Origin: a bacterium
Lineage (GTDB): Bacteria > Patescibacteriota > Dojkabacteria > GCA-016699595
Length of the DNA stretch: 64,000 nucleotides
Assembly (NCBI GenBank): GCA_016699595.1
Contig: CP064982.1
Coordinates: 507,962 to 571,961, forward strand
Reading direction: 5' to 3'
This document shows positions 9,133-12,924 of the stretch, in pieces. The first letter of the stretch is position 1. Every line of letters begins with the position of its first letter. The notes under the pieces were generated by a model. It worked only from the letters and a program-made list of their open reading frames with translations, did no database searches and was not told where the DNA came from. A program made the position numbers and the translations under genes.

Positions 9133-11433
9133 CTATTTTTCACTATCAACTTCCACTTCTTTACTGCCGAATCCGCTATATTTTTCCAAAAAATCACTAA
9201 CCTTTTGTTTATCTTCTCCTACGGATTGTCCAATTTTGATAACTGGATCTGATGGTTCAGCGTCATGTTTCATTTGCGATCTGGCATCCAGCGTATTTAG
9301 CATCGCAATTTCTTGTTCGATTGCGCGAAGTTCTACAGGATTTGTAGAAATAAGCCTATGTTCTGCTTTACTTGACAAAATTTGCATGCCTACATGATTC
9401 GCTCCAGCAAAAAACAAGCCTTCTCCAACTCCTGATGATAATAGGTAATTTCGTTCTCCATCCGTTAAATAAAAAGACTTTTGTACTCTATCTACTGCAG
9501 CTGGTGATTGTCTAAGCAGAATTTGCATAGAAGAATTTGTAACTATAGCCTTACCATATTCTGAGTCCAAGAAATCTTCAACATCCTGGGTAATTGTAGT
9601 CAAGCCTAGATAATACTTCCTAGCTCTTTTTGCAATTGAATAAACAAATTTGGCAGCATCTGGATGCTGCATCATCCACCACGCTTCGTCTATTATCAAA
9701 ATTCTCCTTCTTTGATCCTTTTTGATTCTAGTCCATATATAGTCAAGCATCATATACATAGCAATTGGCCTAAAGTCCTCTGCTAAATCTCTTATAGAAA
9801 AAACTGTGAATGTGTTTTTTAAATCAATATTGGATTTGCGATCAAATATACCAGAAGCAGAACCTTTTACATACTTCTCGAGTCGAATAGCCATAGAACT
9901 TGCTTCTTTATCTGCCATTGCAAGCAAAATTTTATAAAGATCTTCCATCAATGGAGCCTCTCTTGAATGAGTAGCCGGATCTGGTGTTATCCCTTTCTCT
10001 TTGTAGGTCAAAATAATTGCGCGATCTAGAACTGCACCTTCTTCTGGACTCAAATTACCTCCCATCATTATGCGTAACAAACCTGTCAAAGACAATATTT
10101 TCATCCTTAACTCATCTTCTCCATCAACAAAGTAACCTGATAATTCAAATGGGTTTAATTTCTTGTCACCATCTTGTGTGAATGAAATGTACTCACCACC
10201 AACTGCTTCACAAAGCTTTTGATACTCCTTTTCAGGATCTATGATAATAATATCTGTACCAAACATTAATGATCTTACTGCTTCCAGCTTCACAAAATAT
10301 GATTTTCCTGCTCCTGAAGTTGCAAAGATGACAGAGTTTGCATTTTCTAATGCAAATCTATCAAATATTATTAATGATTTATTATGCTTGTTAACTCCAT
10401 ACAAGATACCCTGATCCATTGTAAGGTTTGTAGAGATAAATGGAAAGGTAGTTGCAATTGAAGTCGTATCCATATTTCTGTTTAAATACAACTTATCAAG
10501 ACATAAAGGCAAACATGATTGTAAACCAGCTTCTTGTTGTAATGTCGCAGGTTTTACAACAACACCGATTGTTGCAAGCGTTGCTTCAACATTTTTTGAA
10601 ATTCTTTCCAATTCTTTTATTGAATCAGCACGTATAGTCACATATAGTCCTAAATGAAAAAATTTTTCATTTCCTCTAGCCAATTCATCTTGTATTTTTT
10701 TGGCATCTTCTAGATTAACTTTAACGGTAGGATCTACTACCTTTCCCTCTTCGACAGAAATATTTATAGTTGCTTCCATCTCAGCAATTTTTCTCCTCAT
10801 TTTCTGGATAATGAGAGATGTGTCAATTGGATAATAGAATGTAGAAATATCTAGAGGAGACTCAAAATTAATTAAAGGGGATAACCAATTTTGACTAACT
10901 CTTACTGGATAAGAAATTGCAAATAATGTTCTAAAATACTTAGTGCCAATAAGAACATGATTGAAGTCAACTTCTATAGCTGCTGGTGCTATGATATCTT
11001 TCACATCAATTAAACCATCTTGGAATTTTTTTACTATATCTAAAGTTTCTCTATCTTCATTAGTTTGTCCAACATCTTCTTGAGTTAGAGGGTCTCCCTT
11101 ATCAATCTTCTTTTTTGAAAAAAACAAGAATCCTTTTTTCGAAGCTTTTTTTTCTATTTTTTTTGATTCTGTGCCTTCAGGTAAAGTTACTGTCTTACTT
11201 GTATTTAGAATTTCTAAATCAACATCATCCGTCTTGTTTGCTGGTGTATTCAAATCCAACTTGTTGATTGTTATCTCACCTGATGATTTCATCTTTTGGA
11301 CATAGTCAGGCTCGCCAAGGATCAAATCCACCATCTTATCTAAGATAGATCTTTTCATTGGGTCACCTTTTCTTATTTTTCCCGAAACTGACTTAGCACT
11401 TATTGCAGTTTCTGTTTGATCTTTTTTCTTCAT
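9133..11433 (-). CDS. virB4: VirB4/TrbE/CagE-family type IV secretion ATPase
   Basis: 766 aa; Walker A FATSGAGKS, Walker B-like RILIIDEAWWMM, C-terminal GLTTITQDVEDF typical of VirB4-type ATPases. Confidence 0.85.
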   Translation of the reverse strand: MKKKDQTETAISAKSVSGKIRKGDPMKRSILDKMVDLILGEPDYVQKMKSSGEITINKLDLNTPANKTDDVDLEILNTSKTVTLPEGTESKKIEKKASKKGFLFFSKKKIDKGDPLTQEDVGQTNEDRETLDIVKKFQDGLIDVKDIIAPAAIEVDFNHVLIGTKYFRTLFAISYPVRVSQNWLSPLINFESPLDISTFYYPIDTSLIIQKMRRKIAEMEATINISVEEGKVVDPTVKVNLEDAKKIQDELARGNEKFFHLGLYVTIRADSIKELERISKNVEATLATIGVVVKPATLQQEAGLQSCLPLCLDKLYLNRNMDTTSIATTFPFISTNLTMDQGILYGVNKHNKSLIIFDRFALENANSVIFATSGAGKSYFVKLEAVRSLMFGTDIIIIDPEKEYQKLCEAVGGEYISFTQDGDKKLNPFELSGYFVDGEDELRMKILSLTGLLRIMMGGNLSPEEGAVLDRAIILTYKEKGITPDPATHSREAPLMEDLYKILLAMADKEASSMAIRLEKYVKGSASGIFDRKSNIDLKNTFTVFSIRDLAEDFRPIAMYMMLDYIWTRIKKDQRRRILIIDEAWWMMQHPDAAKFVYSIAKRARKYYLGLTTITQDVEDFLDSEYGKAIVTNSSMQILLRQSPAAVDRVQKSFYLTDGERNYLLSSGVGEGLFFAGANHVGMQILSSKAEHRLISTNPVELRAIEQEIAMLNTLDARSQMKHDAEPSDPVIKIGQSVGEDKQKVSDFLEKYSGFGSKEVEVDSEK

Positions 11434-11439
11434 GTTTTA

Positions 11440-12111
11440 TTATTTTGCAGTTATTATTGGAGTAGCAATTTCATCTGCTTTAATTTGTAATTTTTGTAAA
11501 CCTGGTGTATCCGGATTGTAGATTGAATAAAAGAGTTTAATTAATTCATCAGTATTTAATTGTCTCCCAAATATATTCATTTTTTGCATTTGTTTAACTA
11601 GATGATCTCTCCTTGGGTACAATATTCCTCTTGCCTTATCAATTACTTGATCAGCATTAGTTATTTTTTCTTCCTTCCCAAGCGCTGTCTTAATAGGACT
11701 TGTTTTCTTGACATTCGATACCAAGCTTGAAACCACAATAAAAAATCTTTTATCCAACACTTCAGTATTGTAAGCTAGATTTTTTATAAAATTAGTATAA
11801 ATTTCAATTTGCTTCCGTAAACCATCCGTTATTTGCTTTTCTCTTTCTCTTTCAAGTCTATCTATATATCTAGTGACATCAAGCTTTTCTGTTCTTATAA
11901 GTATCTGTATATAGAAATTTAAGGAATTTATCAAAGCAGCAAACGCCAAAATTTTTGCCTCTTGTTCTTTTTCAGACAGCAAATCAAAATTTACTGCAGT
12001 AGTTTCGATAACTAGAGATACTTGACCATTTTTGCATAAAATCAAATCTTGTTTGATATCCTCAATATCCAAATGTTCCTGAGTTGTAGATTGCCATGTA
12101 AAGAGTTTCAT
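11440..12111 (-). CDS. Hypothetical protein, co-operonic with the VirB4-like ATPase
   Basis: 223 aa, 3-6 nt spacing to both neighbours; no TM segment; function unknown. Confidence 0.45.
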   Translation of the reverse strand: MKLFTWQSTTQEHLDIEDIKQDLILCKNGQVSLVIETTAVNFDLLSEKEQEAKILAFAALINSLNFYIQILIRTEKLDVTRYIDRLEREREKQITDGLRKQIEIYTNFIKNLAYNTEVLDKRFFIVVSSLVSNVKKTSPIKTALGKEEKITNADQVIDKARGILYPRRDHLVKQMQKMNIFGRQLNTDELIKLFYSIYNPDTPGLQKLQIKADEIATPIITAK

Positions 12112-12114
12112 TTT

Positions 12115-12924
12115 TTACTTTTGTTCTAATTTCTTTGCCCTTATGAATCGCAACGCCGATTCTTTCAAAAATTCCTTTGTAGGCAAAACAATATCTTCAT
12201 CACTAGGTACTGAAGAACTAGTTAAAAAACTTTTTTGATTTGATCGAACCTTCGAAATGTCGAGCTTGTCTACTAAATTTTGAGATGTATATTGATCTGT
12301 GGGTGAATTTGATTCTACTAGAATTGCATTTTCATCCGTTTTCTGCAAATCTTGGTTTCCATCTCTTGCTAGGTGAACTACTTTTTGTGTGTAACCATTT
12401 GCATATGATAGAGTTTGCGAATTATTAGTTGCATTAGTTGTGAAAAATATACTTGCAATTAGATTATCCATCTTGGCTAGTTCCTTTGTCTCATAGACAT
12501 CTACATTTGTAATAATTTGAGAATTATCTTGTGGAAAAATATTCTTATTATCATCACTAAGATTGTTTGTACTGCTCTTTGTCAAAGGGTTGAAATCGCT
12601 AAGATTATCAAATATTGAACGTTTTTTTTCTGATTTCTTATATACAGATCTTTGAGTAGAGAACAAAGCTATCAGATAATTGATCAGCCAGGATTCAAAT
12701 GACATTCCATTTATCTTCCATACAGCCACCATCCACGAAAGCAATACAAAAAATCCGACCAAAATCCACTTCAATATTGGTATAGGTTTGAAGAAAAAAT
12801 AGGACAAAAAAGCTAGTACAAACCCGACAAAGACTATCCCAAATTGCCTAAAAGTCAATTTACCAAACAACTTGAATTCTACATCCATGATGTTTTGTGG
12901 AACAGCGTGTGAATTTATGGACAT
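12115..12924 (-). CDS. Membrane protein with two N-terminal TM helices, possibly VirB3/PrgI-like
   Basis: Hydrophobic hairpin FGIVFVGFVLAFLSYFFF / ILKWILVGFFVLLSWMVAVW directly upstream of the VirB4-like gene; low-complexity C-terminal half. Confidence 0.4.
   Translation of the reverse strand: MSINSHAVPQNIMDVEFKLFGKLTFRQFGIVFVGFVLAFLSYFFFKPIPILKWILVGFFVLLSWMVAVWKINGMSFESWLINYLIALFSTQRSVYKKSEKKRSIFDNLSDFNPLTKSSTNNLSDDNKNIFPQDNSQIITNVDVYETKELAKMDNLIASIFFTTNATNNSQTLSYANGYTQKVVHLARDGNQDLQKTDENAILVESNSPTDQYTSQNLVDKLDISKVRSNQKSFLTSSSVPSDEDIVLPTKEFLKESALRFIRAKKLEQK

What the first reader, a model, noticed from the sequence alone, without database searches (positions are those of the whole stretch)
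9133..12924. Chromosomal VirB4-type ATPase operon without any mobile-element hallmarks
A three-gene operon (two-TM membrane protein, 223-aa unknown, 766-aa VirB4/TrbE-family ATPase) sits among core genes (gatC, aldolase, greA, ruvCAB). No relaxase, coupling protein, integrase or transposase was recognised in the window. This looks like a minimal, chromosomally fixed type IV secretion-like apparatus rather than a conjugative element.
Basis: partly seen in the sequence, partly recalled or inferred. Interest (0 to 1): 0.55.

Follow-up and report, generated by a model that had tools for sequence, protein, structure and literature searches.

The report
Known Patescibacteria type IV secretion core

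Summary
Three tightly packed minus-strand genes encode a PrgI/VirB3-type two-helix membrane protein (12115-12924), a 223-aa TrsD-family protein (11440-12111) and a CD1110-family VirB4 ATPase with intact Walker A and B motifs (9133-11433). The 223-aa "unknown" is not VirB8-like. It is the detached N-terminal domain of VirB4.

The window is a Dojkabacteria-like Patescibacteria (CPR) chromosome. I found no relaxase, coupling protein, integrase, transposase, att-like repeat or GC anomaly in the ORFs and regions scanned.

The triad recurs next to each other in 73-77 of 80 related CPR loci. In Dojkabacteria it sits in a class-wide conserved block (PEGA protein, epimerase-like membrane protein, greA, prgI, trsD, virB4). 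VirB4 is more conserved across the class (median 68% identity) than the neighbouring ribosomal proteins.

This is the "Patescibacteria T4SS" of Wang et al. 2023 and Quinonero-Coronel et al. 2025: derived from monoderm conjugation machinery, relaxase-less, chromosomal and essential for epibiotic growth in a Saccharibacterium. The preprint of the 2025 paper lists Dojkabacteria among the carriers.

"Minimal" is unproven. VirB6, pilins and a hydrolase are absent from the window and from within 10 kb of virB4 in 24 Dojkabacteria loci, but the rest of the genome could not be searched.

The parts
12115..12924 (-). prgI / virB3-like gene. The product is a 269-aa protein with an N-terminal two-helix membrane hairpin (helices 28-45 and 50-69), followed by a ~170-aa S/N/K/D-rich tail without a recognisable domain.
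   Evidence: Pfam PrgI PF12666 scores 41.9 bits against a cut-off of 27, over residues 8-88. Hydrophobic helices. The conserved N-terminal motif VPQNIMDVEFKLFG is shared with CPR and Firmicutes PrgI proteins. The C-terminal CarboxypepD_reg domain seen in most Dojkabacteria homologues is missing here.
11440..12111 (-). trsD-like gene. The product is a 223-aa soluble protein equivalent to the detached N-terminal domain of VirB4.
9133..11433 (-). virB4 gene. The product is a 766-aa T4SS ATPase (719 aa in the NCBI call). Residues ~1-130 are K/D-rich and not conserved, ~138-360 hold the remainder of the VirB4 N-terminal domain, and ~361-690 form the P-loop ATPase domain.
   Evidence: NF045971 (CD1110 family) scores 403.9 bits against a cut-off of 325, matching profile positions 181-734 of 752. 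Pfam P-loop_TraG and AAA_10 match above their cut-offs; CagE_TrbE_VirB matches only below its cut-off (17.1 vs 21 bits). PDB 4ag5 matches at E 8e-45 and TrwK at E 6e-7. Walker A is at 371-378 and Walker B at 578-583. Identity is 64-76% to Dojkabacteria homologues and 46-51% to other CPR classes. It is at most 38.5% to plasmid VirB4.
12948..13412 (-). greA (transcription elongation factor). It lies immediately upstream and may be co-transcribed. It is a conserved neighbour, not a T4SS part.
   Evidence: Pfam GreA_GreB_N and GreA_GreB both match. A 23-nt spacer separates it from prgI. It lies directly upstream of prgI in 19-20 of 24 Dojkabacteria loci.
13447..13475 (-). Promoter-like site upstream of greA (TTGCTA-17-TAAAAT with an extended TG), inside the only spacer longer than 25 nt in the gene array.
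   Evidence: Consensus scan and spacer table. This is a pattern match only. The region has 89 such sites against 62 expected.
9054..9081 (-). Terminator-like hairpin (12-bp stem followed by a T run) about 52 nt after the virB4 stop. It overlaps the start of the next ORF.
   Evidence: Consensus scan. Only 3 G-C pairs, so it is weak. Function is not shown.
13511..15980 (-). Two conserved upstream neighbours. One is a 606-aa protein with an epimerase-like N-terminal domain and one TM (13511-15331). The other is a 215-aa membrane-anchored PEGA-domain protein (15333-15980). Any link to the T4SS is unproven.
   Evidence: Pfam Epimerase gives E 1.5e-5 and PEGA gives E 8e-4. The order PEGA, this protein, greA, prgI, trsD, virB4 holds in 16-18 of 24 Dojkabacteria loci. 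A PEGA-like family near virB4 in other CPR classes weakly matches the window PEGA protein at E 2.4e-4.

Best explanation
The three genes encode the cytoplasmic-membrane ATPase sub-complex of the Patescibacteria-specific type IV secretion system. That system is a vertically inherited chromosomal descendant of the monoderm (MPF-FATA) conjugation machine.

Proposed mechanism:
1. The PrgI/VirB3 hairpin sits in the membrane and holds the VirB4 N-terminal domain, which here is supplied as a separate polypeptide (TrsD).
2. TrsD and VirB4 assemble into the oligomeric ATPase at the base of the channel.
3. ATP hydrolysis powers assembly of, and transport through, an envelope-spanning channel or pilus whose other parts are encoded elsewhere.
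4. The machine is used at the contact site with a host bacterium to move macromolecules, not to conjugate DNA.

Shown here: gene identities, intact catalytic motifs, the VirB4-NTD fold of TrsD, the gene order shared with Firmicutes conjugation modules, class-wide synteny and strong sequence conservation, and no mobility genes found in the window.

Inferred: the VirB3-VirB4 architecture (from the R388 structures), the role in host interaction (from Tn-seq in Southlakia epibionticum), and the substrate and direction of transport, which are unknown.
For: - Family assignments are above curated cut-offs for VirB4 and PrgI.
- The ATPase motifs are intact.
- The same PrgI, TrsD-like, VirB4 order occurs in plasmids of C. 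botulinum, B. cereus and Pontibacillus.
- The triad is present in 73-77 of 80 CPR loci.
- The Dojkabacteria block PEGA, c10, greA, prgI, trsD, virB4 is conserved.
- Median VirB4 identity is 67.6%, against 35-57% for the seven ribosomal-cluster genes (six ribosomal proteins and RpoA) in the same loci and 41% for GreA.
- In a neighbour-joining tree the CPR VirB4 sequences are monophyletic against five plasmid VirB4 sequences, and the window sequence falls inside the Dojkabacteria group.
- The window shows flat GC, no att-like repeats and no mobility genes.
- Literature: VirB4 occurs in 2,417 of 3,035 CPR genomes, forms a CPR clade nested in MPF-FATA, has TrsD and PrgI as its commonest partners, and is accompanied by a relaxase in only 103 genomes (PMC12102498). 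The T4SS genes are essential for epibiotic growth (PMC10633639).
Against: - No VirB6, VirB2-like pilin, VirB8-like protein or cell-wall hydrolase lies in the window or within 10 kb of virB4 in 24 Dojkabacteria loci. VirB6 is readily found in 24 loci of other CPR classes with the same search. A complete channel is therefore not demonstrated for this organism.
- No experiment exists for any Dojkabacterium.
- Substrate and direction of transport are unknown even in the model Saccharibacterium.
- The promoter and terminator calls are pattern matches only.
Confidence: 0.82

Rival explanations
1. The machine is specifically an importer. It would be a Ced-like or pilus-based uptake system that pulls host DNA, RNA or nucleotides into the epibiont, which cannot make nucleotides itself. 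This is a variant of the best explanation that fixes the direction and the substrate.
For: Quinonero-Coronel et al. propose import of DNA or other macromolecules. A 2026 preprint reports host-RNA feeding and tubular structures at the host interface in a cultivated Patescibacterium, and a monophyletic VirB4. No relaxase or coupling protein for export was found in the window. A weak NCBIfam match to the archaeal DNA importer CedB exists, at E 1.6e-10.
Against: The CedB match scores 40 bits against a cut-off of 700, so this is shared P-loop ancestry only. Wang et al. favour protein export or another role. No import substrate or nucleic-acid-binding partner is encoded next to the triad.
Confidence: 0.3
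2. In Dojkabacteria the system is truly reduced to a stand-alone VirB3-TrsD-VirB4 membrane ATPase. It would work without VirB6 and pilins, using lineage-specific partners such as the membrane-anchored PEGA or CarboxypepD_reg beta-sandwich proteins around it, or the type IV pilus.
For: No VirB6 lies within 10 kb of virB4 in 24 Dojkabacteria loci or in the 64-kb window, against VirB6 in 24 loci of other classes with the same jackhmmer search. The class-typical neighbours are a PEGA protein, a PrgI fused to CarboxypepD_reg, and a 2-TM beta-rich 187-aa protein.
Against: T4SS parts are often scattered in CPR genomes, and VirB6 is highly divergent in some classes. Only about 8% of this genome was visible. 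The window copy lacks two of the three beta-sandwich features.
Confidence: 0.1
3. It is the mating-pair-formation module of a functional conjugative element, with its relaxase, coupling protein and oriT lying outside the window.
For: The VirB4 belongs to a family named for conjugal transfer. Its closest non-CPR relatives are on plasmids, 1,776 of 2,420 of which are typed conjugative. Coupling-protein genes can lie far from virB4.
Against: No mobility gene, att repeat or GC shift was found in 64 kb. The class-wide synteny sits inside housekeeping genes. Conservation exceeds that of ribosomal proteins. Relaxases occur in only 103 of 3,035 CPR genomes.
Confidence: 0.04
4. It is a decaying remnant of an ancient integrated element with no current function.
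For: VirB6, hydrolase and pilin genes that follow VirB4 in plasmid systems are missing here. The window PrgI has lost the C-terminal domain typical of its class.
Against: The reading frames and Walker motifs are intact. VirB4 identity across the class is 64-76%. Spacing compatible with translational coupling is retained. The genome is under 1 Mb and has kept these genes.
Confidence: 0.03

Closest known systems
Patescibacteria (CPR) T4SS: Southlakia epibionticum SEML1_0006-0019 (Wang et al. 2023, PMC10633639) and the phylum-wide survey of Quinonero-Coronel et al. 2025 (PMC12102498)
   Same: Both have VirB4 of the CPR group with adjacent TrsD and PrgI/VirB3. Both are chromosomal and lack a relaxase and a nearby coupling protein. 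Both lie among housekeeping, ribosomal or transcription genes. The preprint version of the 2025 paper names Dojkabacteria among the carriers.
   Different: The Saccharibacterial locus also has VirB6, an array of VirB2-like pilins and peptidoglycan hydrolases in the same cluster. None of these lies in this window or within 10 kb of virB4 in Dojkabacteria loci. Here the block follows greA and is not near dnaA.
Monoderm MPF-FATA conjugative T4SS: the pGO1 TrsC/TrsD/TrsE subclass, CD1110-family VirB4 of clostridial elements, and the Pontibacillus megaplasmid NZ_CP062975.1
   Same: The gene order is the same: PrgI, then a TrsD-like protein, then VirB4. VirB4 scores above the CD1110 family cut-off. 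In this subclass TrsD is likewise a separate protein homologous to the VirB4 N-terminus.
   Different: Identity to plasmid VirB4 is 27-38.5% among the 25 best plasmid hits, and 24-28% for TrsD among the 20 best hits. In three of the five plasmid loci examined (C. botulinum, B. cereus, Pontibacillus) VirB4 is followed directly by a cell-wall hydrolase or by a VirB6- or pilin-like protein and then a hydrolase; VirD4-like proteins and relaxases were seen in the C. perfringens and Embleya loci. The window has none of these.
R388 TrwM/TrwK (VirB3/VirB4) inner-membrane complex, PDB 7o41, 7o42 and 8rtb
   Different: R388 is a diderm system with an outer-membrane core, and its VirB4 is a single 823-aa chain. 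Sequence identity is about 10% in the TrsD superposition.
Archaeal Ced DNA-import system (CedB)
   Same: Both are VirB4/HerA-FtsK-type ATPases used for something other than conjugative export. Ced serves as the functional analogy for an import role.
   Different: The CedB profile scores 40 bits against a cut-off of 700. No CedA-like partners are present.

Membership tests
VirB4 ATPase (T4SS signature protein), CD1110 subfamily | Whole-protein score above the curated NCBIfam cut-off | tested here: met
   NF045971 scores 403.9 bits against a cut-off of 325.
VirB4 ATPase (T4SS signature protein), CD1110 subfamily | P-loop ATPase domain with Walker A and Walker B motifs | tested here: met
   ATSGAGKS at 371-378 and ILIIDE at 578-583. 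PDB 4ag5 VirB4 C-terminal domain matches at E 8e-45.
VirB4 ATPase (T4SS signature protein), CD1110 subfamily | Complete N-terminal domain in the same polypeptide | tested here: not met
   The protein matches the profile only from position 181 of 752. The missing part is supplied by the separate TrsD-like gene, as in the pGO1 subclass and in CPR generally.
PrgI / VirB3 | Pfam PrgI above the gathering score, with a two-TM hairpin, encoded next to virB4 | tested here: met
   PF12666 scores 41.9 bits against 27. Helices are at 28-45 and 50-69. The gene is separated from virB4 only by trsD.
TrsD family (VirB4 N-terminal-domain homologue) | Sequence match to the TrsD/TraD profile | tested here: inconclusive
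   NF041427 gives E 4.6e-7 but 29.9 bits against a cut-off of 200. Homologues carry the precomputed Pfam family PF26593, which my Pfam scan did not report for this protein.
TrsD family (VirB4 N-terminal-domain homologue) | Fold and collinearity with the VirB4 N-terminal domain, encoded directly upstream of virB4 | tested here: met
   The model is an alpha/beta domain that matches VirB4, not VirB8. No VirB8 or PrgL profile hit was found.
Patescibacteria-clade T4SS | VirB4 groups with CPR VirB4 sequences apart from plasmid and ICE VirB4 | tested here: met
   In the NJ tree, 81 CPR sequences are monophyletic against 5 plasmid sequences. Distance is 0.29 within Dojkabacteria, 0.50 to other CPR and 0.64-0.80 to plasmids. 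This is a crude method with few outgroups.
Patescibacteria-clade T4SS | Chromosomal location without an associated relaxase | tested here: met
   No relaxase was found in the ORFs scanned. The rest of the genome was not searchable.
Patescibacteria-clade T4SS | VirB6 and VirB2-like pilins encoded with virB4 | tested here: not met
   None in the window, and none within 10 kb in 24 Dojkabacteria loci. The positive control found VirB6 in 24 other CPR loci. These parts are not universal in CPR classes either.
Patescibacteria-clade T4SS | Required for epibiotic growth | not testable with these tools
   Shown only for Southlakia epibionticum by Tn-seq.
Conjugative element (ICE or plasmid MPF module) | Relaxase, type IV coupling protein, and integrase with att sites or a replicon | tested here: not met
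   None in the window. The only FtsK carries alpha and gamma domains. No att-like direct repeats were found, including around the two tRNA-Met genes. GC is flat at 0.30-0.36.
Archaeal Ced DNA importer | CedB equivalog score | tested here: not met
   40.3 bits against a cut-off of 700.

The most novel reading that the evidence does not exclude
Dojkabacteria may run a stripped-down T4SS. In this reading, a VirB3-TrsD-VirB4 ATPase is hard-wired into a housekeeping gene array (ribosomal/rpoA cluster, PEGA protein, greA, prgI, trsD, virB4). It has no VirB6 or pilin and works instead with lineage-specific membrane-anchored beta-sandwich proteins: the PEGA protein, a PrgI-CarboxypepD_reg fusion, and a 2-TM 187-aa protein downstream of virB4. 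That would be a new minimal architecture for a VirB4-driven machine.
Probability: 0.1. Interest if true: 0.6.

Novelty: already known. Interest (0 to 1): 0.25.

Why it matters
The Patescibacteria T4SS is one of the few machines that these ultra-small, host-dependent bacteria keep almost universally. In the one genetically tractable species it is essential. What it transports, and in which direction, is an open question central to how a large fraction of bacterial diversity makes a living.

This window adds no new kind of system. It does give a clean example of three points:
- The core triad is embedded in housekeeping synteny.
- Its ATPase evolves more slowly than the neighbouring ribosomal proteins.
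- The rest of the canonical apparatus is absent from the neighbourhood in a whole class.

The last point is a useful pointer for anyone asking which parts of the machine are truly indispensable.

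Tried and rejected
- **TrsD against solved structures by sequence.** A profile search of PDB sequences with the TrsD alignment gave only chance-level hits (E of 0.47 or worse, ribosomal eL21). The VirB4 link needed fold comparison.
- **Structure prediction with locus-derived homologues.** I repeated it with database homologues.
- **Phage terminase reading.** PHROGs gave "terminase large subunit" (phrog_2666, E 1e-25) for VirB4. I rejected it because the curated VirB4 family scores above its cut-off and the PrgI and TrsD partners fit a T4SS.
- **Defence-system reading.** PADLOC gave nothing relevant.
- **The 640-aa ORF at 6471-8393 as a hidden relaxase or coupling protein.** It has no Pfam, NCBIfam, PHROG or PADLOC hit and no TM helix. 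It is an ORFan: only itself among 5.8 billion proteins, and 4 weak hits among 1.8 billion representatives. The single-sequence model was unusable at pLDDT 36. There is no evidence for either role, and neither is excluded.
- **att sites and tRNA-linked integration.** Only short AT-rich chance repeats were found.
- **Profiles of families that flank virB4 in other CPR classes or in Dojkabacteria** (c3, c4, c5, c7, c9, c13, c16, c35, c36). None found a counterpart in the six-frame translation of the window.
- **The 187-aa family downstream of virB4 in Dojkabacteria as a pilin.** hhalign gave no similarity to a T4SS pilin.
- **Pilin search.** jackhmmer with the Pontibacillus pilin found nothing in any locus, so absence of pilins is weakly tested.

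Full report
**What is in the sequence**

On the minus strand there are three ORFs at exactly the coordinates given: 12115-12924 (269 aa), 11440-12111 (223 aa) and 9133-11433 (766 aa). They are separated by 3 and 6 nt.

The 766-aa protein is a VirB4:
- It scores 403.9 bits against NCBIfam NF045971 (VirB4-like conjugal transfer ATPase, CD1110 family; cut-off 325).
- It matches Pfam P-loop_TraG and AAA_10 above their cut-offs; CagE_TrbE_VirB matches only below its cut-off.
- It matches the solved VirB4 ATPase domain 4ag5 at E 8e-45.
- It has intact Walker A (ATSGAGKS, 371-378) and Walker B (ILIIDE, 578-583) motifs.
- Its first ~130 residues are lysine/aspartate-rich and not conserved in relatives. 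NCBI annotates a 719-aa version.

The 269-aa protein is a PrgI/VirB3-type protein. Pfam PF12666 scores 41.9 bits against 27 over residues 8-88. It has two hydrophobic helices at 28-45 and 50-69, followed by a ~170-aa S/N/K/D-rich tail.

**The 223-aa "unknown"**

It is not VirB8-like. Four lines of evidence identify it as a TrsD-family protein, meaning the N-terminal domain of VirB4 encoded as a separate gene:
- It matches the TrsD/TraD profile at E 4.6e-7 (below the cut-off). It also matches positions 106-235 of the 894-position Mycoplasma-ICE VirB4 profile at E 2e-8.
- A profile of 50 homologues aligns collinearly to residues 19-201 of a 783-aa single-chain CD1110-type VirB4 from a C. perfringens plasmid (E 0.005).
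- The window VirB4 matches that family's profile only from position 181 onward. The two genes together therefore tile a full VirB4.

The relationship between TrsD and the VirB4 N-terminus is already stated in the literature.

**Genomic setting**

The window is a low-GC (30-39%) chromosome segment with no compositional step. It carries gatC, an aldolase, greA, ruvCAB, two tRNA-Met genes, the S10-spc-alpha ribosomal cluster, EF-Tu/EF-G, gatA, SHMT, FtsK, FtsEX and others.

The closest relatives of VirB4 are MAGs of Candidatus Dojkabacteria (WS6) and unclassified Patescibacteria. The exact protein comes from a 761,814-bp contig.

No relaxase, VirD4/TcpA-type coupling protein, integrase or transposase was found in any ORF scanned. 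The single FtsK has alpha, motor and gamma domains and lies 47 kb away. Direct-repeat searches over 30 kb gave only short AT-rich chance matches, and none involved the tRNA genes.

**Comparative evidence**

Among 80 related loci, a TrsD homologue is adjacent to virB4 in 75-77 and a PrgI homologue in 73.

In the 24 Dojkabacteria-type loci the order is conserved: ribosomal alpha-operon end (rpsM ... rpoA, rplQ, rplM, rpsI), PEGA protein, ~1,040-aa epimerase-like membrane protein, greA, prgI, trsD, virB4, then a 187-aa 2-TM protein. The window differs in three ways:
- The ribosomal block has been separated from the PEGA gene by about 14 kb (ruvCAB, tRNAs, a 1,361-aa surface protein and others).
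- The 187-aa gene is missing.
- In its place are an FNR-like reductase, shared only with the three closest loci, and a 640-aa ORFan.

Across those loci the median VirB4 identity is 67.6% (64-76%) and TrsD is 52%. This compares with 57% for S11 and S13, 51% for S4, 47.5% for S9, 42% for RpoA and 41% for GreA. This ATPase is therefore under stronger constraint than its ribosomal neighbours.

Identity falls to 46-51% in other CPR classes and to at most 38.5% for any plasmid VirB4. In a simple neighbour-joining tree the 81 CPR sequences are monophyletic against five plasmid sequences, and the window sequence lies within the Dojkabacteria group.

**Relation to mobile elements**

The PrgI, TrsD-like, VirB4 order is the order found in Firmicutes plasmids (C. 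botulinum pINGR16-02E1, B. cereus pG9842_209, the Pontibacillus megaplasmid).

In those plasmids, other T4SS genes flank VirB4:
- TrbL/VirB6-like proteins
- T4SS_pilin proteins
- cell-wall hydrolases (NlpC/P60, C39 or M23)

In two further plasmids, of C. perfringens and Embleya, VirB4 is accompanied by VirD4-like proteins and relaxases.

None of these accessories is present in the window. Iterated searches seeded with the plasmid VirB6 proteins recover VirB6 next to virB4 in 24 loci of other CPR classes. They recover it in none of the 24 Dojkabacteria loci and nowhere in the window. Profiles of other virB4-flanking CPR families also find nothing in the window.

**What is known**

This is the Patescibacteria T4SS.
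- Wang et al. 2023 found an unusual T4SS that resembles Gram-positive conjugation systems but lacks coupling and relaxase proteins and includes pilins. It is essential for epibiotic growth of Southlakia epibionticum.
- Quinonero-Coronel et al. 2025 found VirB4 in 2,417 of 3,035 CPR genomes. These form a monophyletic clade nested in MPF-FATA. TrsD (2,272 homologues) and PrgI/VirB3 (1,649) are the commonest partners. Relaxases occur in only 103 genomes. The location is chromosomal, often next to replication and ribosomal genes.
- Their preprint names Dojkabacteria among the carriers.
- A 2025 review treats these systems as established newcomers to the T4SS superfamily.
- A 2026 preprint links possible T4SS pili to host-RNA feeding.

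**Mechanism**

The following rests on the R388 inner-membrane complex structures and on established knowledge of VirB3 and VirB4. It is not tested here.
1. The PrgI hairpin should anchor the TrsD/VirB4 ATPase to the cytoplasmic membrane.
2. ATP hydrolysis should drive assembly of, and transport through, a channel or pilus.
3. The parts that would form that channel are not in view for this organism.

I consider a host-interaction role, not conjugation, the best-supported reading (confidence about 0.8 for identity and general role). Transport direction and substrate are unresolved; import of host nucleic acids is a serious variant (about 0.3).

Conjugation with distal mobility genes (about 0.04) and a decayed remnant (about 0.03) are disfavoured by synteny, conservation and intact motifs.

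A truly minimal VirB6-less machine in Dojkabacteria is the most novel reading not excluded (about 0.1).

**Verdict**

The locus is an ordinary member of a published, phylum-wide system. The small additions from this analysis are:
- the class-wide greA-prgI-trsD-virB4 block;
- VirB4 being more conserved than its ribosomal neighbours;
- the absence of VirB6 near virB4 in Dojkabacteria;
- the PrgI-CarboxypepD_reg fusion typical of the class but lost in this genome.

Noticed in passing
window 6471-8393 (-): A 640-aa ORFan lies two genes downstream of virB4. It has no Pfam, NCBIfam, PHROG or PADLOC hit and no TM helix. Among 5.8 billion proteins it matches only itself, and among 1.8 billion representatives it has 4 weak hits (best remote hit 32% identity over residues 8-181). 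The single-sequence AlphaFold model is mostly helical but unusable at pLDDT 36.
   Followed up: yes
L004, L007, L010 and most of L001-L024 (prgI homologues); window 12115-12924: In most Dojkabacteria the PrgI/VirB3 protein is 265-580 aa. It carries a long low-complexity or coiled linker and then a C-terminal CarboxypepD_reg beta-sandwich domain (PF13620, 41.8 bits against a cut-off of 32.3 in L007). The window copy and L008 lack this domain. I did not find this VirB3 fusion mentioned in the T4SS papers read.
   Followed up: partly
L004-L024, directly downstream of virB4 (e.g. L007:11836-12402); absent from the window: A conserved 187-aa protein with two TM helices and a beta-rich C-terminal part follows virB4 in 19 Dojkabacteria loci. 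It has no Pfam family and no similarity to a T4SS pilin. In the window lineage it is replaced by an FNR-like reductase (8406-9197, shared only with L001-L003).
   Followed up: partly
window 13511-15980 (-) and L002-L024: A PEGA-domain membrane protein and an epimerase-like, TM and DUF4012 protein always precede greA-prgI-trsD-virB4 in Dojkabacteria. The second protein is ~1,040 aa in relatives but only 606 aa here. A PEGA-like family also sits near virB4 in other CPR classes, with a weak match at E 2.4e-4.
   Followed up: partly
window 21713-22960 (-): A 415-aa ORF carries only the N-terminal part of UvrB (ResIII and the UvrB interaction domain). No C-terminal helicase half follows, because FtsX starts 94 nt downstream. 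It is either a truncated or split UvrB or a pseudogene.
   Followed up: no
window 62237-63357 (-): Two adjacent single-TM proteins of 191 and 182 aa are present. The first weakly matches PilO (E 0.005, below the cut-off). They may be type IV pilus alignment proteins (PilO/PilN) at the edge of the window.
   Followed up: partly
window 25182-29267 (-) and 49637-51874 (-): Two large putative surface proteins are present. One is 1,361 aa with SdrD_B, DUF7507 and SpaA-type domains. The other is 745 aa with PD40/Kelch repeats and a Big_13 domain. Both are candidate host-adhesion proteins of an epibiont.
   Followed up: no
window 15980-30055: Relative to other Dojkabacteria, about 14 kb has been inserted or rearranged between rpsI and the PEGA gene. 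The segment holds ruvCAB, two tRNA-Met genes, a thioredoxin-like protein, an SH3 protein, FtsX, the UvrB fragment, an ATP-grasp protein, TruB, the 1,361-aa surface protein and endonuclease III. In relatives rpsI and the PEGA gene are adjacent.
   Followed up: partly
window 8406-9197 (-): The GTG-started FNR-like ORF overlaps the 3' end of virB4 by 65 nt. An in-frame ATG at residue 31 (position 9107) would remove the overlap. The terminator-like hairpin at 9054-9081 would then lie inside its first codons.
   Followed up: partly
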